Virus genome (UHGV): UHGV-0114133
Direction: 5' to 3' (one strand)
Length of the DNA stretch: 38,826 bases
From: a virus
In this document: in pieces, positions 1,161-38,826 of the stretch
How positions within the stretch are numbered: the stretch's first letter is position 1
Layout: each line of letters begins with the position of its first letter
The notes under the pieces: generated by a model
What the model was told of the DNA's origin: nothing
Seen by the model: only the letters and a program-made list of their open reading frames with translations
Databases searched by the model: none
Program-made: the position numbers and the translations under genes

Positions 1161-1178
1161 ATAGATAAGTACTTACCA
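1161..1178. promoter_or_regulatory. Palindromic operator-like site (family TAGGTAAGTACTTACCTA)
   Basis: agataagtacttacca, 16 nt upstream of start codon at 1194. Confidence 0.45.
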
Positions 1179-1193
1179 ACAAGGAGAAAACAC

Positions 1194-1469: not shown

Positions 1470-1508
1470 TATTTACAGCAAAAATATATAAGTTAGCATT
1501 TACCTATC

Positions 1509-2020: not shown

Positions 2021-2232
2021 TGGCGGTTACACTGACAGGTCTGGAAATCGAAAAAACAAGCGGCTACTGGCGTGCCAAAGGGTTCAAGCAGTCCGGCGTA
2101 CTGGAACGACTGGAACGTGAAGATGGGTATATTGTCCACCAGCGACGTGAATGGCGCATGTACGATCCGGAAACAGGTAAGCTCGTAACGAAGGCCGGGA
2201 CACTCTGGGGTCTGCTGAAGAAAATCCACTGA
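2020..2232 (+). CDS. hypothetical protein (70 aa)
   Basis: ATG overlaps upstream stop (TGATG); basic small protein. Confidence 0.45.
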   Translation: MAVTLTGLEIEKTSGYWRAKGFKQSGVLERLEREDGYIVHQRREWRMYDPETGKLVTKAGTLWGLLKKIH

Positions 2233-2239
2233 TAACACT

Positions 2240-2840
2240 ATCCACTGCGGTGAGTAGCCAGCTCACCGCGTGTGAATCCGGCTCATAACCACTGTAGCGA
2301 GTAGAACACCCTTCAGGTATGCACCCCAACCACTGTAGTGAGCAAACCCTCTGCCACGATATCAACTATCCACTGTAGTGAGTAAATTGGTGATTATCGG
2401 GGTCGCTATACACTGTAGTGAGTAAACAGGCGTTCACTGACTACAAACAACCACTATAGAGAGTGATGGAATGCCCCCTCCAGCGGATATCCACTATGGA
2501 GAGTAAATCTTCGCTGTTTTAAACGGATATCCACTCACTACAGTGGATAGAGGTCAAGTCAGCCAATTCTGCTCTTCACAGTGGATAGTCAACAATGAGG
2601 AGAGCGACGATAACCGCTGTAGAGAGTAGACTTAACATGGATACCCAGTGACCGCTAACCTCTCAGCCCTTGTTTTATCTATGTTTGCAACCACTAACAT
2701 TTACTTCGCGATTTGTGCGCACTGCCTACAGTGGTTATTCTTCGGTTTCTTTTACTCACTACAGTGGATATTGCATTTCCGATAAACAAAAAGGCTCACT
2801 ACAGTGGATAGTGAGCCTTTTTACTCTCTACAGTGGTTGG
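2240..2840. repeat. Iteron array downstream of repA (incA-like copy-control locus), about 14 copies in both orientations
   Basis: Repeats of CCACTGTAGTGAGTA and variants and their reverse complements (TACTCACTACAGTGG) at irregular spacing. Confidence 0.8.
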
Positions 2841-2841
2841 G

Positions 2842-3897
2842 CTATTTGCGAGCCTTTGCCTTGCGCAGCTCTTCGAGAATCGCCAGTTCTTCCTTGCTCA
2901 ACATGACCATTTCCCCGTCTTTTTCTTCAGGAGCAACATCGATAATGTCCTCCGGATCATCACCTGGCAAGATATCTTCTGGCTCTTCAGGCGTGGCCAT
3001 AGATGGCGGCAGTGCCGAACGTAACTTCGGCCGTCTATAGTGGATGACGAAGTAGACCGAGCTGCCGCGTTTCACTTCAGTGTAATCGAGATAGCCGATC
3101 TCTCGCAGCTGCTCCATCGCCTTCCTGACTGTCGCATTCTGGGTAATGGTGCGGCTGGTTAAGTTAAGTCTGGCGCGTAAGCGAGCCAATGAGATTGGCG
3201 CCGGGTCTGGTGGCAAACTTTCAATGAAGGTGTAGAGCGCCTGCGCGGATTCCTTTCTGGAGAGTTCGTTGATGGCCCGAAGTTGCAAAAGCACCTTTTT
3301 GTCGAACTGGTAAAGTTCGAAAATCTTAGGATCGGCCTTCAGTTCGACCGTGTCATTCTTGGTACTGTACTTTGCCGTCTGCACAAGGTGCGTAACGTAA
3401 TACTCTTCAGAGCCTTTGCTGCGGAATGAGATGGTGTTTGTGGCGATACGACTTAGAGAGCTGTCCAGGCGCTTACGTAACTTCGCGGACGATCTGGCTG
3501 TTGGTATGCCACAAAGTCTGACGAACTCGACGAACGGCAACGTGACGGTGTCACCAACAACCTTGTGCTTGGCGAACGCGTGGATGATGCCCACCCATGT
3601 TTTGAAATCGTTATCCATATCAAGACGAAGACCAGCAATCCTTATATCCTCGTACCCTTCGGCTTTGGCCAGAGACAGCTGTTTGAGTTCAGCGGAGGCG
3701 TCCATAGAGACCATTTGCCCCTTTCTACCCCTGGATGTCGATTTCAGCGTCGGAACGAAGAGACCAAGACGCATCAGAGCAACAGGCTGAACTGTGTTGT
3801 TGGTGTTAGGAACTAACGTAACAACTTCGCCGGTCTTTTTGTCTGTTTCGGAAAATGCTTCGCTTATCGCAATGTTTTTATTGTCGTTTACGCTCAT
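2842..3897 (-). CDS. repA: Plasmid replication initiator RepA (iteron-binding, P1/RepFIB-like)
   Basis: 351-aa ORF flanked on both sides by iteron arrays; acidic C-terminus; organisation typical of P1-type replicons. Confidence 0.8.
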
Positions 3898-3940
3898 TCC
3901 AAATGTCTCTTTTTATTCGACGGCTTGGGTGCCTTTACTG

Positions 3941-4059
3941 ATTACAGTGGATAGTAGCACCCATCACAGTGGTTATCCTACCGCCTACAGCGGTTTTTCT
4001 ACTCTCCATAGTGGTTGATTTACTCTCCATAGTGGTTGTTCTTCTCACTATAGTGGATA
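3941..4059. repeat. Origin-proximal iterons (incC-like), 6 copies immediately upstream of repA
   Basis: TACTCTCCATAGTGGTTG and variants x6, same family as 2240-2840. Confidence 0.8.
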
Positions 4060-4099
4060 TCGATAACCTCTAAAGCCATGTGGCACAACGGTTTGCAGG

Positions 4100-4185
4100 G
4101 GCCGGGGATCTCTTTGGGTCTTTGTGGTTCTCTTTGGTTCTAACAGGGATCTGAATTACTGGATCGGGCCTGTGTATAAAAATCA
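4100..4185. promoter_or_regulatory. Origin-like segment A: 3 GATC sites plus DnaA-box-like TGTGTATAA
   Basis: GATC at 4107, 4148, 4162; TGTGTATAA at 4172 is one mismatch from the TGTGGATAA consensus. Confidence 0.5.
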
Positions 4186-4338
4186 GATAATTACAAAATC
4201 AGGCATCACTCCCCTTCTGGGGATAATGTGTGATCGAAATAAACACGCCGCAACGCAAAATTTACAATATTTCCAAGAATATCAGCCATCTGCCGCAGAA
4301 AAACAGGCTCGGAGTTATCCAGTTAAAACATTGTCTCC

Positions 4339-4442
4339 TACTCACTACAGTGGATACCGACTACTCTCCAGAGAGGTTGTTTTGCTCTTCATAGCGGTTA
4401 TTATGCTCTCTACAGTGGTTATTTTGCTCCCTATAGTGGATA
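4339..4442. repeat. Second iteron cluster (5 copies)
   Basis: TACTCACTACAGTGGATA, TGCTCTCTACAGTGGTTATT and similar. Confidence 0.75.
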
Positions 4443-4482
4443 GTAACCCCTTCTCAAGCCAGTAACCGCAAGCGCTGGAGAC

Positions 4483-4555
4483 GATCGGGGATCTCTTTTG
4501 ATCTTCTGTAGGATCTCTCTGGGGATCTAAATATTGGATCGGGCCTGTGAATAAA
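4483..4555. promoter_or_regulatory. Origin-like segment B: 6 GATC sites in 58 bp plus DnaA-box-like TGTGAATAA
   Basis: GATC at 4483, 4490, 4500, 4512, 4524, 4537; TGTGAATAA at 4547; resembles Dam-methylation-controlled P1 oriR. Confidence 0.6.
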
Positions 4556-4639
4556 GTGAATAAGTAAACAGGCATTTGCAAACTCCGGTGCGCCTTATCC
4601 GTTATCGTTGCCCCGGACAAAATTATTTGAACAAGAATT

Positions 4640-15980: not shown

Positions 15981-17003
15981 CTATCGGATGTTGAAGATCG
16001 TCCAGCGTGCCATAAGGTAGTCAGGATTTATCGGGCGAACCGGTTGAGAGATGGGGATAGCGTGGTATTTTTCCAAATCAGGGTCGTCGATCAACACCAT
16101 CGGGTTAAAGTAGATCATCATTGTCGACGGCTCTATTGCGCATAAACCGGCATCAAATAAACGGTGAATGTCTACTCGCAACCATAGCCCATTTGTATAA
16201 TGGTCTACGCCTCCTGCTTTGTGCTCAACGATATGGGCAGCCTCACAGCGCACTCTGGTTTTGACACCAGTAACAACGCAGGTATAGCGGCAGTTTACCC
16301 CCACGGAGTCTGCGAATTTAGCCTGATCTGGGCGACTGGTAATCGTTACTTTTTCACCTACTCTTTTCGACGGAAGTGGTTGGGGTATAAATTCAACTTT
16401 CTTAGTCTCTATTGGTAGTTGGGTAACAATAAGAGGAGTTTCAGGAGACCCAATTAATTTAATCTCTGCTTTTACTATGGGGTTTTCAATTTTGAATTCA
16501 GCTAGGAATTCATTAACAATGCCTTGAGCACTGGTGTTCAGATACTGACCAGTGCGGTGAAACCATAATTGGAAATCACGACGTTTAGAAAAGTCGATGC
16601 AGTTCTCTACTATTTCAGGTAAGTTTTCCATCCTGATTTTTTCAAGAGCTTTACGTTTCTCATCTTGTTCTTTTCGCGCTGCGCGATCCTTTGCTTCCAG
16701 CTCCCGCTTTTCTAAAACGTACTCAATTCTTCGCTTACGTAGGTCATCCCGAACGGAAGAACTGCGCATCGTCTTTTTGAAGCTAATATTTTGTTTCTGA
16801 TGGTTGATAATACCGGTTGGTGTGATGTTGGCAAGGTGCTCTTTCGAGTTCTTTATAGAAGCGACGATTTCAGCCTTTGACTGCCCATCGGCTACTTTCT
16901 TTTTTATCGTTTTTAATAATATTTGGTAATAGGGTCTGGATGGCTTGATATTCAAATCTAATGCTAGAGTATTTACATAAAGTTTCCGCTTATCACTGTT
17001 CAC
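15981..17003 (-). CDS. HNH endonuclease with lysine-rich N-terminal domain
   Basis: C-terminal CEAAHIVEH...GLWLRVDIHRLFD HNH-like core; GTG start. Confidence 0.65.
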   Translation of the reverse strand: MNSDKRKLYVNTLALDLNIKPSRPYYQILLKTIKKKVADGQSKAEIVASIKNSKEHLANITPTGIINHQKQNISFKKTMRSSSVRDDLRKRRIEYVLEKRELEAKDRAARKEQDEKRKALEKIRMENLPEIVENCIDFSKRRDFQLWFHRTGQYLNTSAQGIVNEFLAEFKIENPIVKAEIKLIGSPETPLIVTQLPIETKKVEFIPQPLPSKRVGEKVTITSRPDQAKFADSVGVNCRYTCVVTGVKTRVRCEAAHIVEHKAGGVDHYTNGLWLRVDIHRLFDAGLCAIEPSTMMIYFNPMVLIDDPDLEKYHAIPISQPVRPINPDYLMARWTIFNIR

Positions 17004-22467: not shown

Positions 22468-23028
22468 ATGTGCGAAAAATGCAAAAAAACTAATGCCAAA
22501 GTTGAAAGCGTGATTAAAAAAGTTGGTGCGGCCGAACTGGTTGAGATCATGGGTCTTGTGGTTGGTCACGAAGACGACGCCTCCCCTATTGACCGCCTTT
22601 TCAGCGTTCTCAAGTTCTCAAGCATGATTGATGATCCGATTGAAATTGTGATGCTGGCGCGTCATTTCGGCGAAGCGTATCTGGAAGAGAAAGAACGCGC
22701 CGACAAACTTCAGGCAACTCTGGAAATGGTAAGCAAGCCGAAGTGCTCACCGGATTCAGTCAAGGCAGATGAAACCAACGCCAGCAAAGATCGTGAAATC
22801 GCCGGGTTGAAGTCTTCTCTGGCGATGTTGCTGGCCGCCTTCAAACTGATGTCTTCCCAGGCTGGATTCAAAATGCCTGAGCTGAACAGCGACGATCCGA
22901 TGGCCGTTCGCCAGCTGCTGGGGGCAATGGCCGACCAGCTTGACGACACCAAGAGCCGTCTTGAAGACATGATGCGCGAGCTGACCCACCGCCACAACCT
23001 GAACAAACAGCCGCACAAGATGAGGTAA
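22468..23028 (+). CDS. hypothetical protein (186 aa) with N-terminal CxxC
   Basis: RBS GGAAAAAACAC before ATG; track start 22441 rejected. Confidence 0.55.
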   Translation: MCEKCKKTNAKVESVIKKVGAAELVEIMGLVVGHEDDASPIDRLFSVLKFSSMIDDPIEIVMLARHFGEAYLEEKERADKLQATLEMVSKPKCSPDSVKADETNASKDREIAGLKSSLAMLLAAFKLMSSQAGFKMPELNSDDPMAVRQLLGAMADQLDDTKSRLEDMMRELTHRHNLNKQPHKMR

Positions 23029-23049
23029 ATATTTATATATTAATAATAA

Positions 23050-23095
23050 TTCCTTAAGGTGGCTACAGCCTCTTAAGGAATTATTTGGCTTTTTC
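23050..23095. terminator. Bidirectional terminator between convergent genes
   Basis: TCCTTAAGG...CTTAAGGAA stem followed by TTATTTGGCTTTTT. Confidence 0.5.
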
Positions 23096-23122
23096 GCAAA
23101 TGATAAGAATTATATCGTTGTT

Positions 23123-23566
23123 TTATAAACCTGGGTCAATAATCTCATCTATGAAGTCGCGAGATTTATCGTTGAATCCCAACGCGGAGAAACGCATAAC
23201 AAGATCATTATTTTGAATCGTAACATAGTCTTTGCGCATAAATTCTCCAAAAATATATTTGATACCCTCTTTAGTGTAGGCATACCAATACATTCCTATC
23301 GTACGATCACAATTCTGATACCAACGAAGTTTCACGCCGTTGACATACATGCCTTGAGCTACGCCACTACCTGAACACTTAAAGAAATTCCGCGAAGTAA
23401 GGTAGATGTTTGCATTGCCATCCGACGTTCTTTCTAGGAACACATACCAATTACCGTCGTCTGACATTACAACAGGTCTTCCTGTTTCTGTTAAATACCA
23501 TCCTTCGGCATTAGCTGATGCTAAGCTACTGATAAACAAAAATACTGCGATAACTAACCTGTGCAT
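23123..23566 (-). CDS. secreted protein with signal peptide (147 aa)
   Basis: MHRLVIAVFLFISSLASANA signal-like N-terminus; Trp/Tyr-rich mature part. Confidence 0.6.
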   Translation of the reverse strand: MHRLVIAVFLFISSLASANAEGWYLTETGRPVVMSDDGNWYVFLERTSDGNANIYLTSRNFFKCSGSGVAQGMYVNGVKLRWYQNCDRTIGMYWYAYTKEGIKYIFGEFMRKDYVTIQNNDLVMRFSALGFNDKSRDFIDEIIDPGL

Positions 23567-23726
23567 TAATGTGTCCTTTTAATTCTGTTATATGCAGATT
23601 GAGATGCTTTGCTACGTAATTAATATTATATCTAGGTTGAGGTCAAGAATCTAATACTAGGAATTGTCAACATTAATTCTATTAACGCACCCTAATAAAA
23701 AGTATTGGTTTCTTTTAAGTTTTTTA

Positions 23727-23760
23727 GATAATAACACCAACAAGAAAACAATTTGTTTAA
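23727..23760 (+). promoter_or_regulatory. Cassette promoter/leader motif (type I)
   Basis: gataataacaccaacaagaaaacaatttgtttaa, 11 nt upstream of ATG 23771. Confidence 0.5.
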
Positions 23761-23770
23761 TGGTGCAATC

Positions 23771-25456
23771 ATGAATACAGCCCTTTCCATCATTGACGCT
23801 TTCACCCCAAACACTGATATCGACTACCGGCAGGAAATGAATGTTATCCACGAAATTGTGGCCGAATGCGAGAAAGAGATTGCGTTCATGAATAAGGTTC
23901 ACGACTTCGTTTATGGCGACGAACGCCACAACATGATTAACCGTCTACTGCGGCTCAATCACCGGCCGGACGACGAGCGAACACGCTTTAACAGAACCTG
24001 GCTGGACAAAGTCGACCTGGAATGGGTGAAACAAAATATCTGGGCCGAGTACTGGAAGAAGGTCACGGATATGACCAACGTTCTGCTGATCATGCCAGCA
24101 TCCCGCCGCGACGAGTGGCGTGAACAGTTTATCGAGGGCAAGCAGGAAACGATCAAGACTGACAGAACTGGCTATCAAATGAAGGTTAAAGAGTTCGTTG
24201 GTGTACCTGAGTTCAAAGCAGAAACGGTCATACCAACGATGCTTAATTTGCTGAATGACAGGCACAAATATCTCTCTGAGCGCGTGTATGGCTTGTTTAA
24301 GGCGTTGAGTCCTGCTCACAAGACCAATAAGACGAACGGCTTCAGCGAGCGTCTGATCATCGCCGACTGCATTTCCGATTTCTGGCGGGACAGCGTCAGC
24401 GTTAACTACCGGAAAGAGGATTACATAGACGACCTGCGCGTCATGTTGCATTTCTTTGCACACAAAGAATTTATCACCATCAACCGCACGGCCGAGATGC
24501 TGTCAGCTGCGTATCGAGCAAATGACTGCCAGACCGGCGACTGGATGAATGTCGACGGAAACCTGATGCGTGTGAAGATGTTTAAGAACGGCAACGTTCA
24601 CTTTGAAATACATCCTGACGTAGCCTGGAAGCTGAATGAGGTGCTGGCTTACAGTATGCCCGCTGCAATTCCGGCTCCATGTCGTACTGCGCCCAAAACA
24701 CGGGCACCAAAACAGTTCGGGTTAATCCAGAAGACGATCTCCGAGCCGGTGCGTACTGCGCTTTGCGACGGGCGATCTGGCAATGACAAACGCGTATGGT
24801 ACTTCTCTGATTCCGGTCTCCAGAAGTCACAGGTGGAAGAGCTGGAGCGTACACTGAGCTTTATTGGCGGCGTGCAGGAGAACAAGCACTGGCAGTTCCC
24901 GTATGAGATCGGCCATACGCTCAATACGATTGTGGCCACCGGCTTAATACCGGATACAAAATCACACCAGTTCTACCCTACCCCGCGTTTGATAGCGGAG
25001 TACGTTGCCAGAGCCATCGAGCTGAAGCCAGGTGAGAAGCTGCTGGAGCCTGAAGCCGGGCGCGGAGATCTGCTGGCCTGCATCGACGCCAATCCGGAAG
25101 ACGTTACCTGCATAGAAGTCGCACCTCTCTTCGCTGATATCCTGCTTGGCAAGGGGTACACAAATACGGTCTGCTGCGACTTCATGAAGTGGTCTGAGGA
25201 CAACGCAGGTTATCAGTTCGACAAAATCGTTATGAACCCGCCCTACTCTCTTGGCCGTCACAGAGAGCATACGCTGGCCGCGCTGGAGCATCTTAAAGTC
25301 GGCGGGCGACTGGTGGCTGTACTGCCGGGTGATGCGCCAGTTCTGAACTGGATGTCGCTGGATAATTACGTTTATGCCAAAGGGAAGTCGTTTACTGACG
25401 AGTTTGAAGACACCGGGATTACTGTCAGCGTATACGTTTTTAAACGCGTTAAATGA
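23771..25456 (+). CDS. DNA methyltransferase (N6-adenine type) with about 430-aa N-terminal domain of unknown function
   Basis: C-terminal AdoMet motif LEPEAGRGDLL and catalytic NPPYS. Confidence 0.7.
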   Translation: MNTALSIIDAFTPNTDIDYRQEMNVIHEIVAECEKEIAFMNKVHDFVYGDERHNMINRLLRLNHRPDDERTRFNRTWLDKVDLEWVKQNIWAEYWKKVTDMTNVLLIMPASRRDEWREQFIEGKQETIKTDRTGYQMKVKEFVGVPEFKAETVIPTMLNLLNDRHKYLSERVYGLFKALSPAHKTNKTNGFSERLIIADCISDFWRDSVSVNYRKEDYIDDLRVMLHFFAHKEFITINRTAEMLSAAYRANDCQTGDWMNVDGNLMRVKMFKNGNVHFEIHPDVAWKLNEVLAYSMPAAIPAPCRTAPKTRAPKQFGLIQKTISEPVRTALCDGRSGNDKRVWYFSDSGLQKSQVEELERTLSFIGGVQENKHWQFPYEIGHTLNTIVATGLIPDTKSHQFYPTPRLIAEYVARAIELKPGEKLLEPEAGRGDLLACIDANPEDVTCIEVAPLFADILLGKGYTNTVCCDFMKWSEDNAGYQFDKIVMNPPYSLGRHREHTLAALEHLKVGGRLVAVLPGDAPVLNWMSLDNYVYAKGKSFTDEFEDTGITVSVYVFKRVK

Positions 25457-28869: not shown

Positions 28870-29439
28870 ATGGATGTGATGGAAACCCAGAACCAACAAA
28901 CAAAACCTCTGAATAATGCTTATGCGTGGCTTCTAGCTTTACTGCCTCTCTTCTTTGGAGCACCGCCAGATGAGTATTTGAATTATGCAATAGTGATAGG
29001 TGGAGTCGCTGGACTCGGCTTTCTGGTGGCTGACAGAATGGCATTGTCTGATGCAGGGTATGAACCACCGGCCATCCTGTGGGGAGTATTTCTCCTTCCG
29101 GTCTATCTCTGGAAACGTGCCACCGTTACAAAAGGCAGTCGACTTCCTTTTATCGTAATCGTCGCGTTGCTTGCTGGTAACATCTTCATCGGTATCCCAC
29201 ACCAGGAAGAGGTTGCTCTTGAAGAAGCGGCTTGTCCTCTCGTAACGACCATTCTGAAAGAGAATAACGGAACCACAGCGCCGAAATGTATGAAGGTGAC
29301 AATTCAGGACAAGGTGACGGACAAGTTCTATAAAGCGACGGCTACGCTGGATAACGGCAACGACATAAACGTTACTCTGGAACTGACCGGCGAAAGAAAC
29401 TTTTATGTGCGCGTTCCGGATGCCTATCTGAACAACTAA
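28870..29439 (+). CDS. integral membrane protein (189 aa)
   Basis: Several hydrophobic segments (LLALLPLFFGA, IVIGGVAGLGFLVA, ILWGVFLLPVYLW, FIVIVALLAGNIFIGI). Confidence 0.55.
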   Translation: MDVMETQNQQTKPLNNAYAWLLALLPLFFGAPPDEYLNYAIVIGGVAGLGFLVADRMALSDAGYEPPAILWGVFLLPVYLWKRATVTKGSRLPFIVIVALLAGNIFIGIPHQEEVALEEAACPLVTTILKENNGTTAPKCMKVTIQDKVTDKFYKATATLDNGNDINVTLELTGERNFYVRVPDAYLNN

Positions 29440-29783
29440 CGGCTGCAACTCGTTGATATTGGCGGTCACAAATTGAGGATTTCTATAAGAGTCCGTTGAT
29501 CGCCACTTTCCCCACCACCCTACCCCACTCAATCCCAGGCGTGACAAGGCATTTAAGCCAATTACACCCATAAGAAAACAAATAAATAACACATCAACGT
29601 AAAGTCAACGCTTTCCCCTGATTTGGTCTAAAAAGTTGATGTTTTCGCACGCCATCTCTTATACCCAAAATCCTGTGTGCCAGAATCCATCTCCCCGCGA
29701 CCAAAGCGTCAAAAACGACTCGTGATACCACCCAAAAACAGACACGCTCAGAAGCGCTCCCGTTGCGTTATATTGGGCATCTA

Positions 29784-29816
29784 AACAAGTTGTTTTCAGG
29801 CATAAGAAAACAAGTT
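29784..29816 (+). promoter_or_regulatory. Cassette leader motif, two adjacent partial copies, with no gene downstream
   Basis: aaacaagttgtttt then agaaaacaagtt. Confidence 0.35.
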
Positions 29817-29867
29817 AACCACACCCACAGGAAACCCAGAGACGCCATTACCCACAATCCCGGAAAC

Positions 29868-29959
29868 ACCCACCTCTTCCTGTCAGGCTACCGAAAAGAC
29901 CCACCTCTTTGCCCCAGGCTACAGAGCACCCACCTAATCTCCCCAGGCAACCGAGAACG
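29868..29959 (+). repeat. Tandem triplet of about 30-bp C-rich repeats
   Basis: cccacctcttcctgtcaggctaccga / cccacctctttgccccaggctacaga / cccacctaatctccccaggcaaccga. Confidence 0.6.
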
Positions 29960-30536
29960 CAGCTCGCGCACGCAAACCCCTACACGCCATTACCCAATAC
30001 ACGGAGAAGAACAGCCAGAACGAAACCCCGGACAAACCCAGACCAGAACAGGAACCGTCGCAATCTCGTTTACCCACCATTACCCCGAAAGAGAGCGCAA
30101 ATTCCTGAATAGCAGGGAACGTCATTACTTCATATGCGGAGAACAACAAAAGCGCCCTACTGCCATTACCCACACTTCCATCAATTCACGTAAACGAAGA
30201 GAAAAGCGCACCTGCCATTACTCCATACACGGAGAAGAACAATCACCAAAACGACGAGAACAACCCAGACGAAAACACAGAGAAGAACCACCTCAAGAAG
30301 AACGAAACCACATATGCCGGTAGAAAGAACAAACCACCCATTTCACCCACAGGAATAGTCGCCGTATTGAGCGTTATCAGAGAGAAGGTTTATGCCCACA
30401 TAAGAGAGAAAATTCGTGGGAGGTATAAGTGGGAAGGGAAGGAGGGGTATCGCCACTTTCTTCGTATAAATTCAAGCCATAGTTTTCATCCCCCGTAACG
30501 TCCCTTTCCACCCCTTCGGTCAGCCTTCGGGCCATC

Positions 30537-33838: not shown

Positions 33839-33843
33839 AGAGT

Positions 33844-33867
33844 AAGGCCACCAATGCTGGTGGCCTT
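33844..33867 (+). terminator. Hairpin of the AAGGCCACC...GGTGGCCTT terminator family
   Basis: aaggccaccaatgctggtggcctt. Confidence 0.45.
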
Positions 33868-33871
33868 AAAT

Positions 33872-33960
33872 GACCATCCTGTTTCCCGCAGGCTAAAAAC
33901 ACCAACCTCTTACCTCCAGGCAACCGACAAACCCACCTGTTCCCGTCCGGCTACCGCAAC
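33872..33960 (+). repeat. Second tandem triplet of about 30-bp C-rich repeats (paralogous to 29868-29959)
   Basis: ccatcctgtttcccgcaggctaaaaa / ccaacctcttacctccaggcaaccga / cccacctgttcccgtccggctaccg. Confidence 0.6.
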
Positions 33961-33989
33961 TTTCCACTTTGACGCCTTATTCGTACAAC

Positions 33990-34028
33990 GATAATTAACA
34001 CCAACAAGAAAACAATTTGTTATTTACG
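33990..34028 (+). promoter_or_regulatory. Cassette promoter/leader motif (type I)
   Basis: gataattaacaccaacaagaaaacaatttgttatttacg. Confidence 0.5.
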
Positions 34029-34042
34029 ATAAGGAATTAATC

Positions 34043-34525
34043 ATGAATTTTATCGCTACTGTAAACGCACCCGCACATGGCAATATCGCTGTAACGTTCT
34101 CTGACATTGAAAAACGAGTACTTGGTGCATGGCGCGACAATGAGACGGTAGAACTGTCAGCACAAGAAAAATGCATTATTGCACGCGACATCATTGGCAA
34201 TCGTCGTTACTCGCGGGTATTTGAGAAAGCATATGTGGTAAATTCTGGATTCGGAACGTTCGTCTTTCCGGTGCGCTCCGGGCGATTCTGCCAGTCCAAG
34301 CTGATTGAGTTCGCTACGCAGATTTCTGTCTGGATTAAAACTCAATCGTCGTTCAAATTTTCCGACGATGAAGCAGTATCGCAGGGGATGCGGATCGCCA
34401 ACAATGCAATAAAATGCAAAAACATTACGTATGCCGCTGGCGTTGACACATGGAAACTGTTTTGCGCTAACTTTATGCTGAATGTATACGCAAGCAACCG
34501 CATCCACATCCTTGATGGCGTGTAA
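34043..34525 (+). CDS. hypothetical protein (160 aa)
   Basis: AAGGA RBS before ATG; flanked by C-rich and G-rich repeat blocks. Confidence 0.6.
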   Translation: MNFIATVNAPAHGNIAVTFSDIEKRVLGAWRDNETVELSAQEKCIIARDIIGNRRYSRVFEKAYVVNSGFGTFVFPVRSGRFCQSKLIEFATQISVWIKTQSSFKFSDDEAVSQGMRIANNAIKCKNITYAAGVDTWKLFCANFMLNVYASNRIHILDGV

Positions 34526-34532
34526 CTGAGAA

Positions 34533-34557
34533 GAGGGCCAGAAACGGCCCTTTCTCT
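34533..34557 (+). terminator. Rho-independent terminator
   Basis: GAGGGCCAGAAACGGCCCT followed by TTCTC. Confidence 0.55.
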
Positions 34558-34572
34558 ATAGCCACCAGCTGC

Positions 34573-34720
34573 CGCAGGGAAATTTTCAGAAACGGCGAGG
34601 AACGCATTCATGAGCCGAAGGGAAACGACCATGAAATTTTCTGGAAACGGCGGGGGTCGCCTTTATGTAGAAAACTGAGCGGGAGAAACCCGGAATCGCG
34701 CCAGAAATTGCGTAGCGGCG
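34573..34720 (+). repeat. Second block of G-rich repeats (paralogous to 30537-30680)
   Basis: cagggaaattttcagaaacggcgagg / aagggaaacgaccatgaaattttctggaaacggcgggg. Confidence 0.5.
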
Positions 34721-35063
34721 CTGGGGTAGCGCTGGTGGGGTTTCAGCCCCTGGGCCATCCAGATAGCTTTCGCTATGTGATTATGTGAATCCGTGGGTAA
34801 ATCACTGTAAGCGCGTACACGTTGCCCAACGTGGCAATCATATGCGAGTGGATACAAAACAACACAAAGAGCCGATCCGCGCCGACAAATAAACGCGGAT
34901 CACGCCAACGACACGACAAAATAAGCAACACGCTAAAACGCTGTAAAACGTGCTATAACGTGTTTTTATTGTGGGTAATGGTCAGATACTGCTACTCGCA
35001 AAAATGCGTTAAATTGGTGCTTTTATGGCGCTTGCCTTTGGTCTGTTTTGGCTAACTTCGGAC

Positions 35064-35137
35064 AATAAAAAACGCGCCAATGATGGCGCGTTATGGTGGG
35101 AGTATTGGAAACGAAAAAAGCGCCCATAGTGGGCGCT
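35064..35137 (-). terminator. Two tandem rho-independent terminators for the minus-strand operon
   Basis: Hairpins AACGCGCCAATGATGGCGCGTT and AGCGCCCATAGTGGGCGCT, each followed by a U-tract on the minus strand. Confidence 0.6.
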
Positions 35138-35142
35138 CGATT

Positions 35143-35364
35143 TTATTTGTGTAAACTAATTTTGAATCCCATTTCTACAAACGCTTTTAACATTAAAAAT
35201 ATATCAGCGTCATTCACGTCTGCTTTTTTTCGCTCCTGGTCGTTCAATAAGTCAATTTTGCGCGTTGTTTCATTTATAAACTCGACTGCGCGCCCAGCGA
35301 TCCCAGCGATGCGATTAACATAATATTCATTATGGACGTTAACGCCAGCGATAAGAACAAACAT
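35143..35364 (-). CDS. small hypothetical protein (73 aa)
   Basis: AGGAG RBS; flanked on both sides by the same 19-bp hairpin. Confidence 0.45.
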   Translation of the reverse strand: MFVLIAGVNVHNEYYVNRIAGIAGRAVEFINETTRKIDLLNDQERKKADVNDADIFLMLKAFVEMGFKISLHK

Positions 35365-35414
35365 GATTAAGCTCCTTAAAACTAGCGCCCACTATGGGCG
35401 CTATATCCATCTAA

Positions 35415-36065
35415 TTACGCTTTGAAAGCATCAGCCAGATAGTTATAAAAATCATTTTTAACGAAGCGATATTGCTGTGATCCGTTTTTCGCTGCACCCA
35501 TTCCTTTGATTTTTTCGACCAGTCCCAGACGTTCGCAAAGATTGATAAGCTGGTTGGCTTGAGTGTATCCTGCGTCTAATTTTATTTCGTTGGCTTTTTT
35601 CGCTTCATTCATTAAATCGAAAACAGCGCCATTGGTGAACGTGTCGATCTCGTCGTTAATCATATCGATTAATGCGAATACACGAGATCCTGACATATCA
35701 GCGACGGAATAAACACATTTACCAGCTTTAATGGATTTAACCAGATAAACCAGTTTTTCCAGAGAATAACTATTAGTCATTGCTTCGCGGAAAAACGCTT
35801 CAGGTGCTTGTTTGCTTGCTTTAATCGCGTAGTAAAAGACACCAGCTAATTTCTCATCATTAACAGCGTTTAAAACGTTGTTGGTGAAGTATGCTAGTTT
35901 GGTAGACGCTGCAAGCATGTTAGCTTTATCCGCTTTTGTGTGTGTACCATTTTTATAATGATTGTTATAAGTCTGAGTAGCGTTGTTGGCTGCAACTTGC
36001 AATTCATTAGCGATAACTACAGCAGCGTCGATGATAGCTTTTTTAGAGATAGCAATGTTAGACAT
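35415..36065 (-). CDS. hypothetical protein (216 aa)
   Basis: Long ORF in AT-richer region; no recognised motif. Confidence 0.55.
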   Translation of the reverse strand: MSNIAISKKAIIDAAVVIANELQVAANNATQTYNNHYKNGTHTKADKANMLAASTKLAYFTNNVLNAVNDEKLAGVFYYAIKASKQAPEAFFREAMTNSYSLEKLVYLVKSIKAGKCVYSVADMSGSRVFALIDMINDEIDTFTNGAVFDLMNEAKKANEIKLDAGYTQANQLINLCERLGLVEKIKGMGAAKNGSQQYRFVKNDFYNYLADAFKA

Positions 36066-36329
36066 AATATAAATCCTTAGATTAAATTAGAAAATGTATT
36101 TCTTTCTATCGTTGGCGTGTTCGCTTTCGATGTGATTAATTATCAATATGCAAAAATTAAAATCAAGAGTTTTGTTACGCGGGAGCGAAAAAAATTTACT
36201 CAATAAAAATCAAAGTCTTAGAAATAAAACGCGTTTTCTCGAAGGTGTTGCCTAAATAAATTCTCTATTCAGCCAATCACCCTTATATATTTAAATTGGA
36301 ATCGAGTTTGTGGGAAATAAATATAACGG

Positions 36330-36370
36330 GAAGTGACGAATAAAATAATAACCGGACTTAGCCGGTTATT
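36330..36370 (-). terminator. Rho-independent terminator (minus strand)
   Basis: TAACCGGACTTAGCCGGTTA hairpin followed by a T-rich tract on the minus strand. Confidence 0.55.
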
Positions 36371-36382
36371 AACCTTATAGAT

Positions 36383-36691
36383 TTATTGAACAGACTCTAC
36401 AGCCTTACGATTGGTGTCAAATAGCGCATCAACGAACTGTGCCGATGACTCGCTAGATTCGCAATCCAACATTGCCCTTTCTTCATTTGCCACTTTCTTA
36501 CACAGTTCCACATTCTCGCCTATCGCTTTTCCTGCTTTTACGGCTGCCGAAAATTGATACATGCAAACTGATACATTCTGAGACGTTGAGCACACGTCAT
36601 TCATCAGCGACTGAATGACAGGCTTATAGTCCATTGCATTTGCCGTAACTGAGCAAAGTAAAAATAATGGTGGTAACAATATCGATTTCAT
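36383..36691 (-). CDS. small secreted Cys-containing protein with signal peptide (102 aa)
   Basis: MKSILLPPLFLLCSVTANA signal-like N-terminus; five Cys in the mature part. Confidence 0.55.
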   Translation of the reverse strand: MKSILLPPLFLLCSVTANAMDYKPVIQSLMNDVCSTSQNVSVCMYQFSAAVKAGKAIGENVELCKKVANEERAMLDCESSESSAQFVDALFDTNRKAVESVQ

Positions 36692-36694
36692 AAC

Positions 36695-37207
36695 TCAAAA
36701 AGGCAAAATTCGTTCAACCCAATCGAACAAAACAACTATTTTTCTACCGTTCTCGACACGTAGTGTAACCTGACAAGCATCTGCGCCTGCTGACACCCCC
36801 TCAATTTCACGGCCATCCGCCATGTAAACCCTTATAGACTTCTGTGTTTCATGAGCCTGACGACAAATTCTGAAGAAGTCGCGGCGAGATGGTTGGTTGT
36901 TCACGTAGTCCGGATGTATGGTAAGCCTGCCCGTAAAGCCCTCATCTACTTCTGGAGGTATAATCGTTTCTATGGTGCTAACTCTCTCAATAGGAAGACG
37001 AACTCGATGCTCTTTGCTTCCTGGAACGGGAGAAAGATCGAGTTTGTTGCGTGATGGTAGTGTTCCCTGTATGTACATGTTGAACACTTGTCCATCTTCC
37101 ATCGTGACCTTTACAGGAACAGAGCGTGCCCTCCAGAACATCAAGGTATGTTCCACATTCGAATAGTCTCTGGGCCAGACCTCTGCAGGGATGCCATATG
37201 TAACCAT
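36695..37207 (-). CDS. hypothetical protein (170 aa)
   Basis: Co-oriented with and 3 bp upstream of the 36383 gene (operon). Confidence 0.55.
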   Translation of the reverse strand: MVTYGIPAEVWPRDYSNVEHTLMFWRARSVPVKVTMEDGQVFNMYIQGTLPSRNKLDLSPVPGSKEHRVRLPIERVSTIETIIPPEVDEGFTGRLTIHPDYVNNQPSRRDFFRICRQAHETQKSIRVYMADGREIEGVSAGADACQVTLRVENGRKIVVLFDWVERILPF

Positions 37208-37321
37208 AGTCTACCTTTTTATATCTTTTTTAGTCATTATATACATCTATCTGATACGTATACAGACCAACTGTTCTTTCTGCCGAGTTGATATTGTTAA
37301 GCTGATAATGAAATAAGGCTT

Positions 37322-38122
37322 ATGGAGGGTGATGTGAATAAAAAACACGCATTGGGATTATTGGCGGCATCTGTATTGTTAACAGGTTGTGATTCTGCTG
37401 AGGAGCGAGCTATAAATCTTGTTGAAAAGGAAGTTCGTTCTACGCTTTTAGATCCAGATTCGGGCCGGTTCACCAATATGCGAGCGCTTCAGCTAGGTGA
37501 CAATAGTCACTCATATATGGTATGCGGCGAGGTAAATGGAAAAAATGCCTTGAACGCCTATACAGGCGCGACTGAATTTAATGCGTACATCTTTGATATT
37601 CGCGAACGTGAGCCGATAACGATTGTTGCAATGAATAATAGAACTAGCTCATTAAAAGAGAGATTGCTTTTTGAACGACAAAGTCTGGCATGTATTGACA
37701 ATGGCGTGAAACGCTATTTAGAAAAAGAAGATGAATTCAGAAGGGCAAGCGAAAAACGAGATGATTTGAAAAAAACTCCTTTAGGTAAAGCGGTGTTTGA
37801 TGCTGCAAGTGATTCATCATATGTAAGCAGAGAGTTGGGGGAACCGAAGCGTATCCGTGAAGTGTACGCAAGAGAAGACGATAAGCATGCCTTTGTAAGT
37901 GTCACTAATTATGATACTCCCGATTTTTACAAATTCAGGAAGAGCGATAAAGGCGAGCTTGAACCTGTTAAGGGGCTTTCATATACCGGTTACCCCGCAG
38001 CAGTCAAACAGTGCCAATTTGAACAAGTAGACTCTGAAAACTGCATAACAGAAGAAGAAATTAAGTTGCTTCGAAACGAAAAATATAAACTTGACGACTT
38101 CGTAGTCCCGCCAGAAGAATAA
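37322..38122 (+). CDS. lipoprotein (266 aa)
   Basis: Lipobox LLAASVLLTGC with Cys after the signal peptide; charged mature domain. Confidence 0.65.
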   Translation: MEGDVNKKHALGLLAASVLLTGCDSAEERAINLVEKEVRSTLLDPDSGRFTNMRALQLGDNSHSYMVCGEVNGKNALNAYTGATEFNAYIFDIREREPITIVAMNNRTSSLKERLLFERQSLACIDNGVKRYLEKEDEFRRASEKRDDLKKTPLGKAVFDAASDSSYVSRELGEPKRIREVYAREDDKHAFVSVTNYDTPDFYKFRKSDKGELEPVKGLSYTGYPAAVKQCQFEQVDSENCITEEEIKLLRNEKYKLDDFVVPPEE

Positions 38123-38165
38123 ATAATATCATGTGCTGGAATTTATAACCCCAGCATATTGATTG

Positions 38166-38693
38166 TTATTTGTCCAGTGCTTTGTATTTACTCTTAATCA
38201 ATCGCTCTCCCTTGTCGGTGAAAATAAAACCAAATGGCGATTTGCTGTTTCTACGTAACACGCCTTCTTCGATTGCTTCCTTGTTTGGTTGTACAGTTGC
38301 ATTGTCTACCCAACCTACGAGAGCAAGAAAGTTTAGAAGTTTCATGCTTGTTATCCCTATGTCCAAAGCTACATTACTGACGGTGCGACGTGCTCTGCTT
38401 CTAGTTTTAGTTACTTCACTGCTCTTCGGTGTCAAAAATGTATCTAGCGTATTAAAGAATCCCCTTGCGGATTCTGACTTAATAAGACCTGAGTCGCTCA
38501 TATCACATGCAATACGATAAAGAACATTGCTGTTATTCATGAAGGGATAGTTCTCAACAAATCTGACGAACTCTTGTGCATTTTTCTCTCCGCATTTGTA
38601 ATCCAGCGGGTTGTTCACGCGCCAGAAAAAAACGTTGTTGTTTTTTGCATCAAAAATATCAACGAATGGTAGTTCAGTTAAATAATTCATCAT
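38166..38693 (-). CDS. hypothetical protein (175 aa)
   Basis: Long ORF; start codon lies within a 13-bp inverted repeat. Confidence 0.55.
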   Translation of the reverse strand: MMNYLTELPFVDIFDAKNNNVFFWRVNNPLDYKCGEKNAQEFVRFVENYPFMNNSNVLYRIACDMSDSGLIKSESARGFFNTLDTFLTPKSSEVTKTRSRARRTVSNVALDIGITSMKLLNFLALVGWVDNATVQPNKEAIEEGVLRRNSKSPFGFIFTDKGERLIKSKYKALDK

Positions 38694-38826
38694 GTGCTCC
38701 TTTGTGTCTGGACGAGCACATGATGAATTTTAAAAGGAGGGGAAAAAGTGGAAGTTTACGGCAGCCGTTTGAGAATATCGGCCAGATCTTCTTTGGTCAT
38801 ACCCGAGTTTTCGTAAATCTTCATGA

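What the first reader, a model, noticed from the sequence alone, without database searches (positions are those of the whole stretch)
35064..38693. AT-richer island at the 3' end encoding a lipoprotein, a small secreted Cys-rich protein and three unknown proteins
By eye this region is visibly more AT-rich than the rest of the window (not computed). It is bounded on the left by tandem minus-strand terminators. It carries a minus-strand two-gene operon (170-aa protein and 102-aa secreted protein with five Cys), a divergent 266-aa lipoprotein, a 216-aa protein and a convergent 175-aa protein. Envelope-targeted genes in a compositionally distinct block are typical of acquired cargo such as superinfection exclusion, receptor masking, or toxin/immunity pairs.
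Basis: partly seen in the sequence, partly recalled or inferred. Interest (0 to 1): 0.55.

Follow-up and report, generated by a model that had tools for sequence, protein, structure and literature searches.

The report
FljA-like regulator plus swappable envelope genes
The AT-rich block is real, but it is a standard part of SSU5/pHCM2-type phage-plasmids: two family-wide core units, one encoding an RNA-binding FljA (flagellin-repressor) homologue, interleaved with exchangeable envelope-protein genes, so it is only partly acquired cargo and is fairly ordinary.

Summary
**Observation: confirmed.**
- Bases 35064-38693 have 40.0% GC against 48.6% for the rest. This is the lowest-GC block of its size in the window.
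- Two tandem minus-strand terminators bound it on the left, and the five ORFs exist.

**Interpretation: partly supported.** The window is a piece of an SSU5/pHCM2/pMT1-type phage-plasmid.
- **Core genes.** The 216-aa gene (815 plasmids) and the 170-aa gene (832 plasmids) are core genes of that family. A missed 73-aa ORF is annotated in most relatives examined.
- **The 170-aa protein is not unknown.** It is a full-length FljA-family protein (PF03614, E 2e-73). Its predicted fold is two tandem Hfq/Sm-like domains.
- **Accessory genes.**
  - The 102-aa periplasmic protein (259 plasmids) is an exact 312-bp cassette behind fljA-like.
  - The lipoprotein is found in 71 plasmids.
  - The 175-aa protein is found in 183 plasmids.
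- **Variable slot.** In nine of ten relatives examined, the position beside fljA-like holds a lipoprotein, a secreted protein or a membrane-anchored protein, of several apparently unrelated types.

**Most likely function (inferred, not shown).** This is a module expressed during lysogeny. An RNA-binding translational repressor, possibly silencing host flagellin, sits beside interchangeable envelope proteins that may serve exclusion or surface remodelling.

**Verdict.** New member of a known kind, of modest interest.

The parts
35071..35138 (-). Two tandem intrinsic-terminator-like hairpins (35138..35118 and 35092..35071) that end the orf216-orf73 transcription unit. They form the left border of the AT-rich block.
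   Evidence: 9-bp stems, 6 G-C pairs, T tails; sequence.
It has an AAGGAG Shine-Dalgarno sequence, 37% GC, and a 67-76 aa counterpart annotated in most relatives examined.
   Evidence: (phrog_1585, E 9.5e-34). Counterparts are annotated; none is annotated in the Cronobacter and distant Klebsiella loci.
35378..35402 (-). Hairpin AGCGCCCAnnnTGGGCGCT between orf216 and orf73. It is an inverted copy of the terminator hairpin at 35119-35143.
   Evidence: 2 matches, 0.02 expected by chance; I1, 25 nt, 92% complementary.
35415..36065 (-). orf216, a core gene of the SSU5 family with unknown function. It has no Pfam or PDB relative and is about 39% GC in all family members examined.
   Evidence: phrog_1513; 815 plasmids; dN/dS 0.07.
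36139..36262 (-). Regulatory region of orf216. It holds a promoter-like TTGATT-16-GATAAT (36166..36139), the palindrome AAAACGCGTTTT (36226-36237) and an invariant block (36239-36262) upstream of the promoter.
   Evidence: alignment of 10 family members.
36346..36371 (-). Intrinsic terminator of the fljA-like(-orf102) unit, almost invariant in the 10 family members aligned.
36383..36691 (-). orf102, which yields an 83-aa acidic periplasmic protein after cleavage at ANA|MD, with 4 Cys in the mature protein. It is accessory and forms an exact 312-bp cassette between the last sense codon of fljA-like and the ancestral TAA. It appears translationally coupled.
   Evidence: phrog_9536; 259 plasmids.
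36695..37207 (-). fljA-like gene, encoding a 170-aa FljA-family protein (Pfam 'repressor of phase-1 flagellin'). The predicted fold is two tandem Hfq/Sm-like domains. It is a core gene of the family.
37208..37333 (.). AT-rich (about 31% GC) divergent intergenic region between fljA-like and the lipoprotein gene. It presumably holds both promoters, but no strong sigma-70 consensus was found.
37334..38122 (+). Lipoprotein gene (ORF open from 37322; likely start GTG 37334; 262 aa). It has the lipobox LLTG|C and Asp at +2. The mature protein has 4 conserved Cys and a predicted cystatin/NTF2-like alpha+beta domain (possibly two) joined by helices. It is accessory.
   Evidence: phrog_20234; 71 plasmids.
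38166..38693 (-). orf175, an accessory basic protein from a very small family, unknown function. It is the last gene of the helicase-orf92 string and is convergent with the lipoprotein gene.
   Evidence: phrog_13473; 183 plasmids; 17 of 1.84 billion representatives.
38684..38729 (-). Perfect 16-bp hairpin that buries the Shine-Dalgarno sequence and ATG of orf175.
   Evidence: I4; MFE -24.8 kcal/mol, z -6.0; compensatory changes in relatives.
38756..38826 (-). 3' end of orf92, the homologue of SSU5_123. It is cut by the window end, and a DEAD/DEAH helicase gene and parB genes follow in relatives.

Best explanation
**What it is (shown).** The region is the fljA-like neighbourhood of an SSU5/pHCM2/pMT1-supergroup phage-plasmid. 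It lies between the early and nucleotide-metabolism genes and the helicase/ParB region. It is built from two family-wide core units and an exchangeable set of accessory genes.

- **Core unit 1:** the orf216-orf73 operon, closed by tandem terminators.
- **Core unit 2:** fljA-like, closed by its own terminator.
- **Accessory genes:**
  - orf102, a precise cassette behind fljA-like.
  - A slot between fljA-like and orf92 that here holds a divergent lipoprotein gene and orf175.

The AT-richness has two sources. One is an old, lineage-wide low GC of orf216/orf73 and of the promoter regions. The other is a low-GC lipoprotein+orf175 cassette brought in by recombination with another family member.

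**How it most likely works (inferred).**
- The FljA-like protein is a tandem-Sm (Hfq-like) RNA-binding protein that binds the leader of a specific mRNA and blocks its translation, as FljA does with fliC mRNA.
- In flagellated hosts (E. coli, Enterobacter, Salmonella) the most likely target is host flagellin mRNA. Carriage of the phage-plasmid would then lower flagellin and motility. That would remove the receptor of flagellotropic phages, remove an immune target and save cost.
- The lipoprotein is probably held in the inner membrane by Asp+2 and faces the periplasm. The 83-aa disulfide-bonded periplasmic protein sits alongside it. Both are interchangeable lysogenic-conversion or exclusion factors acting in the envelope.
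- orf175 is kept translationally quiet by a hairpin over its ribosome-binding site.

**Confidence by part.** Architecture and evolution about 0.85; FljA-like as an RNA-binding translational regulator about 0.7; host flagellin as its target about 0.4; an exclusion or surface role for the envelope proteins about 0.35.
For: **Family identity and synteny.**

**Core versus accessory counts.**

**GC pattern across relatives.**: orf216 is about 0.39 everywhere, the alternative 140-aa lipoprotein is 0.53-0.54, and the 266-aa lipoprotein and orf175/188 are 0.35-0.42.

**Recombination breakpoints.** They lie at 36385/36697, and the orf102 indel is exact.

**FljA family membership and fold.**
- PF03614 match with E 1.9e-73 over the full length.
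- 45% identity over residues 106-167 to the C-terminal part of a FljA-like reading frame on Salmonella Kentucky DNA. It shares the PSRRDxFxIC and FDWVxRI motifs, which are largely invariant in the plasmid family.
- AF2 model with pLDDT 82.5, showing two helix+5-strand units.

**Selection.** The gene is under purifying selection, with median dN/dS 0.11.

**Precedent.** A plasmid-borne fljA (z66) prevents fliC mRNA translation, and its plasmid makes motile E. coli non-motile (PMC2652032).

**Envelope genes beside fljA-like.** Nine of ten related loci examined carry an exported or membrane protein next to it. Five types were seen: 140-aa, 145-aa and 266-aa lipoproteins, a 196-aa secreted protein and a 208-aa TM-anchored protein. 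A 102/99-aa secreted protein often lies downstream.

**Lipoprotein features.**

**orf175 hairpin.**
Against: - No experiment links any of these genes to a phenotype, and no paper in the searchable library mentions FljA-like genes of SSU5-type phage-plasmids.
- The gene is not next to a flagellin gene or an invertase, unlike every characterised fljA.
- 342 of 832 carrier plasmids are from Klebsiella and 62 from Yersinia pestis, hosts generally regarded as non-motile. The gene is nevertheless intact and constrained there.
- No sequence resembling the E. coli fliC leader occurs in the window, but none would be expected if the target is chromosomal.
- The Hfq relationship rests on a predicted structure. 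Profile comparison with Hfq was not significant.
- Asp at +2 is replaced by Lys in 2 of 8 homologue clusters.
- Expression during lysogeny is assumed, not shown.
Confidence: 0.6

Rival explanations
1. The FljA-like protein regulates the phage-plasmid's own transcripts, for example a lysis-lysogeny, maintenance or early-gene mRNA, and has nothing to do with host flagellin. The envelope genes are unrelated neighbours that collect in a permissive insertion site.
For: - The gene is core in a family where about half of the carrier plasmids come from non-motile hosts, and it is under purifying selection there.
- Among 50,697 phage records it occurs only in SSU5-type elements, and it is never linked to a flagellin gene.
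- It exists as at least six allelic classes about 70% identical to one another, reshuffled across backbones and genera, with dS higher than in the neighbouring orf216. That pattern is typical of specificity or immunity determinants of mobile elements.
Against: - No candidate cis target was found.
- fljA-like alleles do not co-vary with the adjacent slot gene. The Cronobacter allele is 92% identical to pMT1's, yet the slots differ.
- A recombination breakpoint separates fljA-like from the orf216 leader.
- Nearly identical alleles are shared between Klebsiella and E. coli plasmids (95%). Selection in flagellated hosts could therefore maintain the gene family-wide.
- A plasmid-borne fljA acts across genera on chromosomal fliC (PMC2652032).
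Confidence: 0.3
2. One reading: the whole 3.6-kb block is recently acquired foreign cargo encoding superinfection exclusion, receptor masking or a toxin/immunity pair.
For: - It is the lowest-GC block in the window.
- The lipoprotein, orf102 and orf175 are accessory and restricted to this family.
- The right half has a different nearest relative from the backbone.
- The module has its own terminators and AT-rich promoter regions.
- Small phage lipoproteins are weak structural neighbours of the lipoprotein's N-terminal domain.
Against: - orf216 and fljA-like are in about 815-832 plasmids of the family, and orf216/orf73 are equally AT-rich in all members examined.
- There was no hit in PADLOC, and no annotated Pfam, NCBIfam or PHROG exclusion or toxin family.
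- There are no integrase or transposase genes and no long flanking direct repeats.
- The exchange is between members of the same family, not an import from outside.
Confidence: 0.2
3. The block is decaying, non-functional AT-rich filler, and the ORFs are not real genes.
For: Low GC, and four of the six proteins have no known domain.
Against: - dN/dS is 0.07-0.11 for orf216 and fljA-like.
- Full-length conservation across hundreds of plasmids.
- Conserved Cys residues, signal peptides and Shine-Dalgarno sequences.
- Confident fold for the FljA-like protein.
Confidence: 0.02

Closest known systems
FljA, the phase-1 flagellin repressor of the Salmonella enterica fljBA operon (Pfam PF03614)
   Same: - Full-length match to the family profile (E 1.9e-73) and similar size.
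- 45% identity of the C-terminal domain to a FljA-like reading frame on Salmonella Kentucky DNA, with the PSRRDxFxIC and FDWVxRI motifs shared.
- An RNA-binding mode of action is expected (PMC2652032; fold).
   Different: - Not in an operon with a flagellin gene and not under a Hin-type invertible promoter.
- Carried as a core gene of a phage-plasmid family that also lives in non-motile hosts.
- The target is unknown.
- Identity to a complete, authenticated FljA was not measured. The Salmonella fragment is unannotated and I recognise it as fljA from memory.
fljA(z66) of the linear plasmid pBSSB1 of Salmonella Typhi
   Same: A plasmid-borne FljA homologue that silences the chromosomal fliC post-transcriptionally. 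Its plasmid renders motile E. coli non-motile (PMC2652032, PMC1876496). It is the best precedent for lysogenic conversion of motility by a mobile element.
   Different: - It is still paired with its own flagellin gene fljB(z66).
- It sits on a different replicon type that is not a phage.
Hfq / bacterial Sm-like proteins
   Same: - The model's second half has the same helix plus five-strand order.
   Different: - Two Sm-like domains in one chain rather than one.
- 13-19% identity only, and no significant profile similarity.
- Oligomeric state unknown.
- Hfq is a general chaperone, whereas FljA is a gene-specific repressor.
Phage 'moron' and lysogenic-conversion envelope proteins (for example T5 Llp, phi80/N15 Cor, lambda Bor; named from general knowledge)
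   Same: - Small lipoprotein or secreted proteins in a temperate element, AT-rich, with presence varying among close relatives.
- The fljA-like/orf102 unit has its own terminator, and AT-rich presumed promoter regions flank the genes.
   Different: - No sequence or specific structural similarity to any of them.
- The lipoprotein is larger (262 aa, with a cystatin/NTF2-like fold) and probably anchored in the inner membrane.
- Function untested.
SSU5_122 'lipoprotein' and the equivalent 140-aa lipoprotein of pMT1 and E. coli phage-plasmids
   Same: It occupies the same slot next to fljA-like and is also a lipoprotein.
   Different: - Unrelated in sequence apart from the signal peptide.
- GC-rich at 0.53-0.54.
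- Co-directional with fljA-like and 4 nt upstream of it, rather than divergent.

Membership tests
FljA / Flag1_repress (PF03614) | Full-length match to the family profile above the curated cut-off | tested here: met
   246.3 bits against a cut-off of 24, E 1.9e-73, residues 2-167 on profile positions 2-170 of 170. PHROG 1444 'transcriptional repressor', E 3.4e-89.
FljA / Flag1_repress (PF03614) | Encoded downstream of a flagellin gene (fljB or equivalent) in one operon | tested here: not met
   No flagellin gene lies in the window region or in any of the related loci. The neighbours are a lipoprotein or secreted-protein gene and orf216.
FljA / Flag1_repress (PF03614) | Binds the fliC mRNA leader and blocks flagellin translation | not testable with these tools
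   This needs motility, FliC western, reporter-fusion or RNA-binding assays. The only indirect precedent is PMC2652032.
FljA / Flag1_repress (PF03614) | Conserved C-terminal motifs shared with chromosomal Salmonella fljA | tested here: met
   45% identity over 62 residues, with PSRRDxFxIC and FDWVxRI shared. The same residues are largely invariant in the plasmid family. Caveat: the Salmonella fragment is unannotated, and its identification as fljA rests on my recall.
Sm/Hfq-like fold | N-terminal helix followed by a five-stranded, strongly bent antiparallel sheet | tested here: met
   [not shown]
Bacterial lipoprotein (Lgt/LspA substrate) | Signal peptide ending in a lipobox [LVI][ASTVI][GAS]C | tested here: met
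   MNKKHALGLLAASVLLTG|C. The lipobox is conserved in all 8 homologue clusters. LipoP and SignalP were not available.
Bacterial lipoprotein (Lgt/LspA substrate) | Sorting signal: Asp at +2 gives inner-membrane retention (the E. coli '+2 rule', established knowledge) | tested here: inconclusive
   The window protein and 5 other clusters have C-D-S. Two clusters have C-K. Localisation has not been measured.
Sec/signal-peptidase-I secreted protein (orf102) | Positive n-region, hydrophobic h-region and an AXA cleavage motif | tested here: met
   MK-SILLPPLFLLCSVT-ANA|MD. The A-x-A or S-x-A site is kept in all homologues. Judged by rule, with no predictor run.
Recently acquired genomic island / moron | Composition differs from the rest of the replicon | tested here: met
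   0.400 against 0.486 GC, the lowest 3.6-kb block in the window.
Recently acquired genomic island / moron | Absent from most close relatives of the replicon | tested here: inconclusive
   Met for the lipoprotein (71), orf175 (183) and orf102 (259). Not met for fljA-like (832) and orf216 (815). orf73 was not counted.
Recently acquired genomic island / moron | Mobility genes or flanking direct repeats at the borders | tested here: not met
   No integrase or transposase ORF, and only short chance-level direct repeats.
Known anti-phage defence, superinfection-exclusion or toxin-immunity families | Match to a curated model (PADLOC, Pfam, NCBIfam, annotated PHROG) | tested here: not met
   No PADLOC hit at E <= 0.1. 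There were no relevant Pfam or NCBIfam hits, and the PHROGs matched have 'unknown function'.
SSU5 supergroup phage-plasmid (SSU5_pHCM2, pKpn, pSLy3, pMT1 groups; PMC7969092) | Nucleotide similarity and gene order shared with SSU5, pHCM2 and pMT1 | tested here: met
   799 plasmids match the window's right 25 kb, the best at 96-97% over 78-83%. Synteny with SSU5, pHCM2, pMT1 and LF82/Cyrano is shown.

The most novel reading that the evidence does not exclude
FljA-like proteins of SSU5-type phage-plasmids are a family-wide set of allele-specific, tandem-Hfq-like translational repressors. Through them the element rewires the host cell surface after it establishes itself. They switch off flagellin, or in non-flagellated hosts another envelope mRNA, while the adjacent hyper-variable slot supplies replacement or exclusion envelope proteins. 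This would be a conserved 'surface-remodelling module' analogous to fljBA phase variation, but driven by a mobile element. The deep allelic classes would reflect target or immunity specificities.
Probability: 0.2. Interest if true: 0.6.

Novelty: new member of a known kind. Interest (0 to 1): 0.3.

Why it matters
SSU5-type phage-plasmids are common in clinical Enterobacteriaceae. About 4.5% of complete E. coli genomes carry this gene, always on a plasmid.

If their universal FljA homologue really shuts off flagellin translation, carrying such an element would silently change several traits:
- motility and H-antigen expression;
- susceptibility to flagellotropic phages;
- innate immune recognition.

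That is testable with simple motility and reporter assays.

The predicted tandem Hfq-like fold also gives a structural rationale for how FljA-family repressors recognise an mRNA leader. I found no paper stating this.

The envelope-protein slot is a candidate place to look for new exclusion factors. The specific island in this window is otherwise a routine mosaic of known gene families.

Tried and rejected
**Tried without result.**
- Rfam scan of the whole window found no family.
- Search for a fliC-leader-like sequence in the window gave only chance-level short matches.
- Profile comparison of the FljA-like alignment with Hfq gave 4% probability. The fold relationship appeared only at the level of predicted structure.
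- Attempts to fetch pBSSB1 fljA failed because the record is not in the collections.
- The genome-contig scan with the FljA-like alignment returned six SSU5-type-like relatives (62-76% identity, on contigs of about 30-110 kb). It did not return chromosomal fljA, because the patterns were too specific.
- The afdb50 fold library was unavailable.
- PDB sequence and profile searches for orf216, orf175, the lipoprotein and FljA-like gave nothing meaningful.
- Pfam on distant orf175 relatives gave nothing. One weak hit to a C-type-lectin repeat protein looks spurious.
- PADLOC gave nothing.
- Literature searches for FljA in SSU5, pHCM2 or phage-plasmids found nothing.

**Considered and rejected.**
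- *fljA-like regulates the adjacent lipoprotein mRNA.* The alleles do not co-vary with the slot content.
- *The island is an integrative element.* There are no mobility genes and no flanking repeats.
- *The ORFs are spurious.* dN/dS and conservation argue against it.

Full report
**1.

Region 35064-38693 has 40.0% GC, against 48.6% for bases 1-35063. No window of the same length starting before position 31,400 is as low, and the window-wide minimum (39.9%) lies inside the region. The intergenic parts are about 30% GC.

Two minus-strand terminator-like hairpins lie at 35138..35118 and 35092..35071, each with a 9-bp stem, 6 G-C pairs and a T tail. Region 34400-38826 holds 9 such sites, against 4.1 +/- 2.3 in shuffles.

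The five ORFs are present at the stated coordinates. The 170-aa and 102-aa genes are 3 nt apart. The second has no Shine-Dalgarno sequence, and a terminator follows at 36371..36346, so they form one operon.

By inspection, the 102-aa protein has a classical signal peptide ending ANA|MD. It has five Cys, one of them in the signal peptide. The 266-aa ORF has the lipobox LLTG|C.

Three corrections are needed:
- A 73-aa ORF (35143-35364, minus strand) with a good Shine-Dalgarno sequence was missed.
- The lipoprotein most likely starts at GTG 37334, behind a GGAGG motif, giving 262 aa. Six of seven homologues start there.
- The 170-aa protein is not unknown.

**2. What the window is**

The region matches 789 plasmids, 755 of them non-mobilizable, and the related plasmids listed are about 100-135 kb. 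They come from Klebsiella, Escherichia, Enterobacter, Yersinia, Salmonella, Citrobacter and Cronobacter. It also matches 12 phage records, including Salmonella phage SSU5 and Escherichia phage Cyrano.

Gene order is the same as in SSU5, pHCM2, Y. pestis pMT1 and the E. coli LF82 plasmid. In the window's orientation, left to right, the order is:
- the 160-aa gene;
- terminators;
- the 67-76 aa gene;
- the 216-aa gene;
- the optional 102-aa gene;
- fljA-like;
- a variable slot;
- orf92;
- a DEAD/DEAH helicase gene;
- parB genes.

The rest of the window carries a Rep3 initiator flanked by 21-bp iterons, an SbcCD-like nuclease pair, thymidylate synthase and an HNH endonuclease. The window is therefore a piece of a phage-plasmid of the SSU5 supergroup, as defined in PMC7969092. 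Its backbone is closest to E. coli and E. fergusonii members, at 96-97% identity.

**3. Core and accessory parts**

tblastn against 72,556 plasmids gave these counts:

| Gene | Plasmids with a match | Typical identity |
|---|---|---|
| fljA-like (170 aa) | 832 | mostly 60-80% |
| orf216 | 815 | mostly 88-100% |
| orf102 | 259 | mixed: 98 records at 95% or more, 148 at 60-80% |
| orf175 | 183 | mostly below 80% |
| Lipoprotein | 71 (59 full length) | mostly 60-80% |

Two of the six genes are thus counted core genes of the replicon family. The small gene after orf216 has annotated counterparts in most, but not all, relatives examined.

orf216 and its small partner are about 39% GC in every member examined (SSU5, pMT1, Klebsiella, Enterobacter, LF82). 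The alternative 140-aa lipoprotein that fills the slot in SSU5 and pMT1 is 53-54% GC. The 266-aa lipoprotein and orf175/188 are 35-42% GC wherever they occur.

The AT-richness therefore has two origins: an old lineage trait on the left, and a low-GC cassette on the right.

Pairwise blastn shows clean mosaic boundaries:
- 33843-36385 is most like E. coli members, at 93-95%.
- 36697-38826 is 95.6% identical to an Enterobacter hormaechei plasmid.
- The segment between them is missing from members that lack orf102.

At the junction, members without orf102 read ...CCGTTT TAA ATCTATAAGG. The window reads ...CCTTTT TGA GTT ATG...CAA TAA ATCTATAAGG. orf102 is therefore an exact 312-bp cassette placed between the last sense codon of fljA-like and the ancestral stop codon.

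No integrase or transposase gene and no long flanking direct repeats are present.

**4. The 170-aa protein is a FljA-family protein with a tandem Hfq-like fold**

It matches Pfam PF03614 ('repressor of phase-1 flagellin') over its whole length, with E 1.9e-73, and PHROG 1444. Sources name its relatives 'transcriptional regulator', 'repressor of phase-1 flagellin' or 'flagellar synthesis: repressor of fliC'.

Its distribution is narrow:
- Among 50,697 phage records it occurs only in SSU5-type elements.
- Among 5,426 complete E. coli genomes it occurs in 246, always on plasmids.

A 4.6-kb Salmonella Kentucky fragment begins with the 3' end of a reading frame that I recognise, from memory, as chromosomal fljA. 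That fragment is 45% identical to residues 106-167 and shares PSRRDxFxIC and FDWVxRI. These residues are largely invariant across the plasmid family.

This fold fits the published mode of action of FljA-type repressors, which prevent translation of fliC mRNA (PMC2652032).

**5. How fljA-like evolves**

dN/dS is about 0.11, against 0.07 for orf216 and 0.02 for the helicase. dN is about three times higher than in those neighbours, and dS is about twice that of orf216.

The alleles fall into at least six classes about 70% identical to one another. These classes do not follow host genus. A Klebsiella allele is 95% identical to one from E. coli, and the pMT1, pHCM2 and Cronobacter alleles are 92-95% identical. 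The window's allele belongs to an Enterobacter-type class, with 88-90% as its best match. Its C-terminal end is identical to that of an E. coli class, which shows recombination within the gene.

The gene is clearly functional. Its presence in Klebsiella (342 plasmids) and Y. pestis (62) argues that flagellin cannot be the only reason it is kept. The sharing of alleles between genera weakens that argument.

**6. The envelope-protein slot**

In ten related loci, the position beside fljA-like holds different products:

| Product beside fljA-like | Found in | Arrangement |
|---|---|---|
| 140-aa lipoprotein | SSU5, pMT1, pHCM2 (annotated truncated there) and an E. coli plasmid | Co-directional, 4 nt upstream of fljA-like |
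| 145-aa lipoprotein | Klebsiella | Divergent |
| 259-266 aa lipoprotein | Window, Enterobacter, LF82, Cronobacter | Divergent |
| 196-aa secreted protein | Two E. coli members | Upstream |
| 208-aa protein with an N-terminal membrane helix | A Klebsiella member | Upstream |

The window's lipoprotein shares only its signal peptide with the 140-aa type, and the 140-aa and 145-aa types give different weak Pfam hits. A very distant Klebsiella member has no exported protein at this position.

A 99-102 aa secreted protein with a C-x8-C-M motif often follows fljA-like.

The window's lipoprotein belongs to a family of only 8 clusters, nearly all of those with informative contig lengths on contigs of about 100-110 kb. 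It has four conserved Cys in the mature protein and Asp at +2. Under the E. coli +2 rule that Asp implies inner-membrane retention, but two clusters have Lys instead.

orf102 belongs to a family of 12 clusters. orf175 has only 17 relatives among 1.84 billion representatives. Neither these nor orf216 matches Pfam, NCBIfam, PADLOC or the PDB.

**7. Most likely mechanism**

*Shown:*
- the architecture of the region;
- family membership of the FljA-like protein;
- the core/accessory split;
- the recombination history;
- the export signals;
- the predicted folds.

*Inferred:*
- The FljA-like protein binds an mRNA leader and blocks translation.
- In flagellated hosts the obvious candidate target is fliC mRNA. 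The precedent is the fljA of plasmid pBSSB1/pBSSB2, which silences chromosomal fliC and makes E. coli non-motile (PMC2652032).
- The flanking envelope proteins are interchangeable lysogenic-conversion or exclusion factors.

*Main rival:* the protein controls the element's own transcripts. Its deep, reshuffled allelic classes and its retention in non-motile hosts point that way. However, I found no cis target, and the alleles do not co-vary with the neighbouring genes.

**8. Comparison with what is known, and verdict**

The protein is a member of the FljA sequence family. It lacks the genomic hallmark of characterised fljA genes, which is a flagellin gene in the same operon.

The annotation 'repressor of phase-1 flagellin' has been attached to relatives of this gene in public records. 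I found no paper that discusses or tests it in SSU5-type elements, and none that describes the Hfq-like fold.

The island in this window is a new mosaic: an E. coli-type backbone, an Enterobacter-type fljA-like/lipoprotein/orf175 block and an E. coli-type orf102. All its gene families are already present in hundreds of sequenced plasmids.

It is a new member of a known kind, of modest interest.

Noticed in passing
window 38684-38729 (minus strand): A perfect 16-bp hairpin with a 14-nt loop buries the Shine-Dalgarno sequence and ATG of orf175. The RNA MFE is -24.8 kcal/mol, z -6.0 against shuffles. Relatives keep it through compensatory changes: C-G to G-C in LF82 and A-T to G-C in an E. coli plasmid. 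It is a likely translational block or attenuator.
   Followed up: partly
window 35119-35143 and 35378-35402: The same hairpin, AGCGCCCAnnnTGGGCGCT, occurs twice in opposite orientation and brackets the 73-aa gene. One copy is the first terminator. The other lies between orf216 and orf73, just before the Shine-Dalgarno sequence. There were 2 matches against 0.02 expected by chance.
   Followed up: partly
window 36170-36300 (upstream of the orf216 promoter at 36166..36139): Several non-coding blocks are invariant or nearly so across 10 family members and are better conserved than much of the rest of the intergenic region. They include the palindrome AAAACGCGTTTT (36226-36237), which is AAAATGCATTTT in one relative and so still a palindrome, and the block 36239-36262. 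They may be an operator or a small RNA.
   Followed up: partly
window 36695-37207 and loci L001-L020: fljA-like exists as at least six allelic classes about 70% identical to one another. They are shared across host genera, with dS about twice that of the adjacent orf216. The pattern resembles specificity or immunity determinants under balancing selection.
   Followed up: partly
window 2842-4465: A Rep3-type initiator gene (2842-3897, minus strand) is followed by two arrays of 21-bp iterons (3992-4056 and 4364-4439). This is the plasmid replication origin.
   Followed up: partly
window 15981-17003 and 23000-24000: There are two further AT-rich dips, at 0.40 and 0.38 GC. The first contains an HNH endonuclease ORF and is a possible homing-endonuclease insertion. 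The second lies just upstream of, and overlaps the start of, a DUF4942-domain gene.
   Followed up: no
window 29000-30500: There is a strong strand-composition anomaly, with GC skew down to -0.27 and AT skew up to +0.34. Relatives carry a gene annotated 'procyclic acidic repetitive family protein' somewhere in the region matching the window's right 25 kb, which could explain the anomaly. This was not examined.
   Followed up: no
locus L022 (OR850936.1, labelled Salmonella phage S.Kent 1-2-1), 1-4592: This 4.6-kb 'phage' record starts with the 3' end of what looks like chromosomal fljA. Two large minus-strand ORFs (328 and 319 aa) and IS3-like transposase-type ORFs follow. None was checked against profile libraries. 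It looks like host DNA rather than a phage genome.
   Followed up: no
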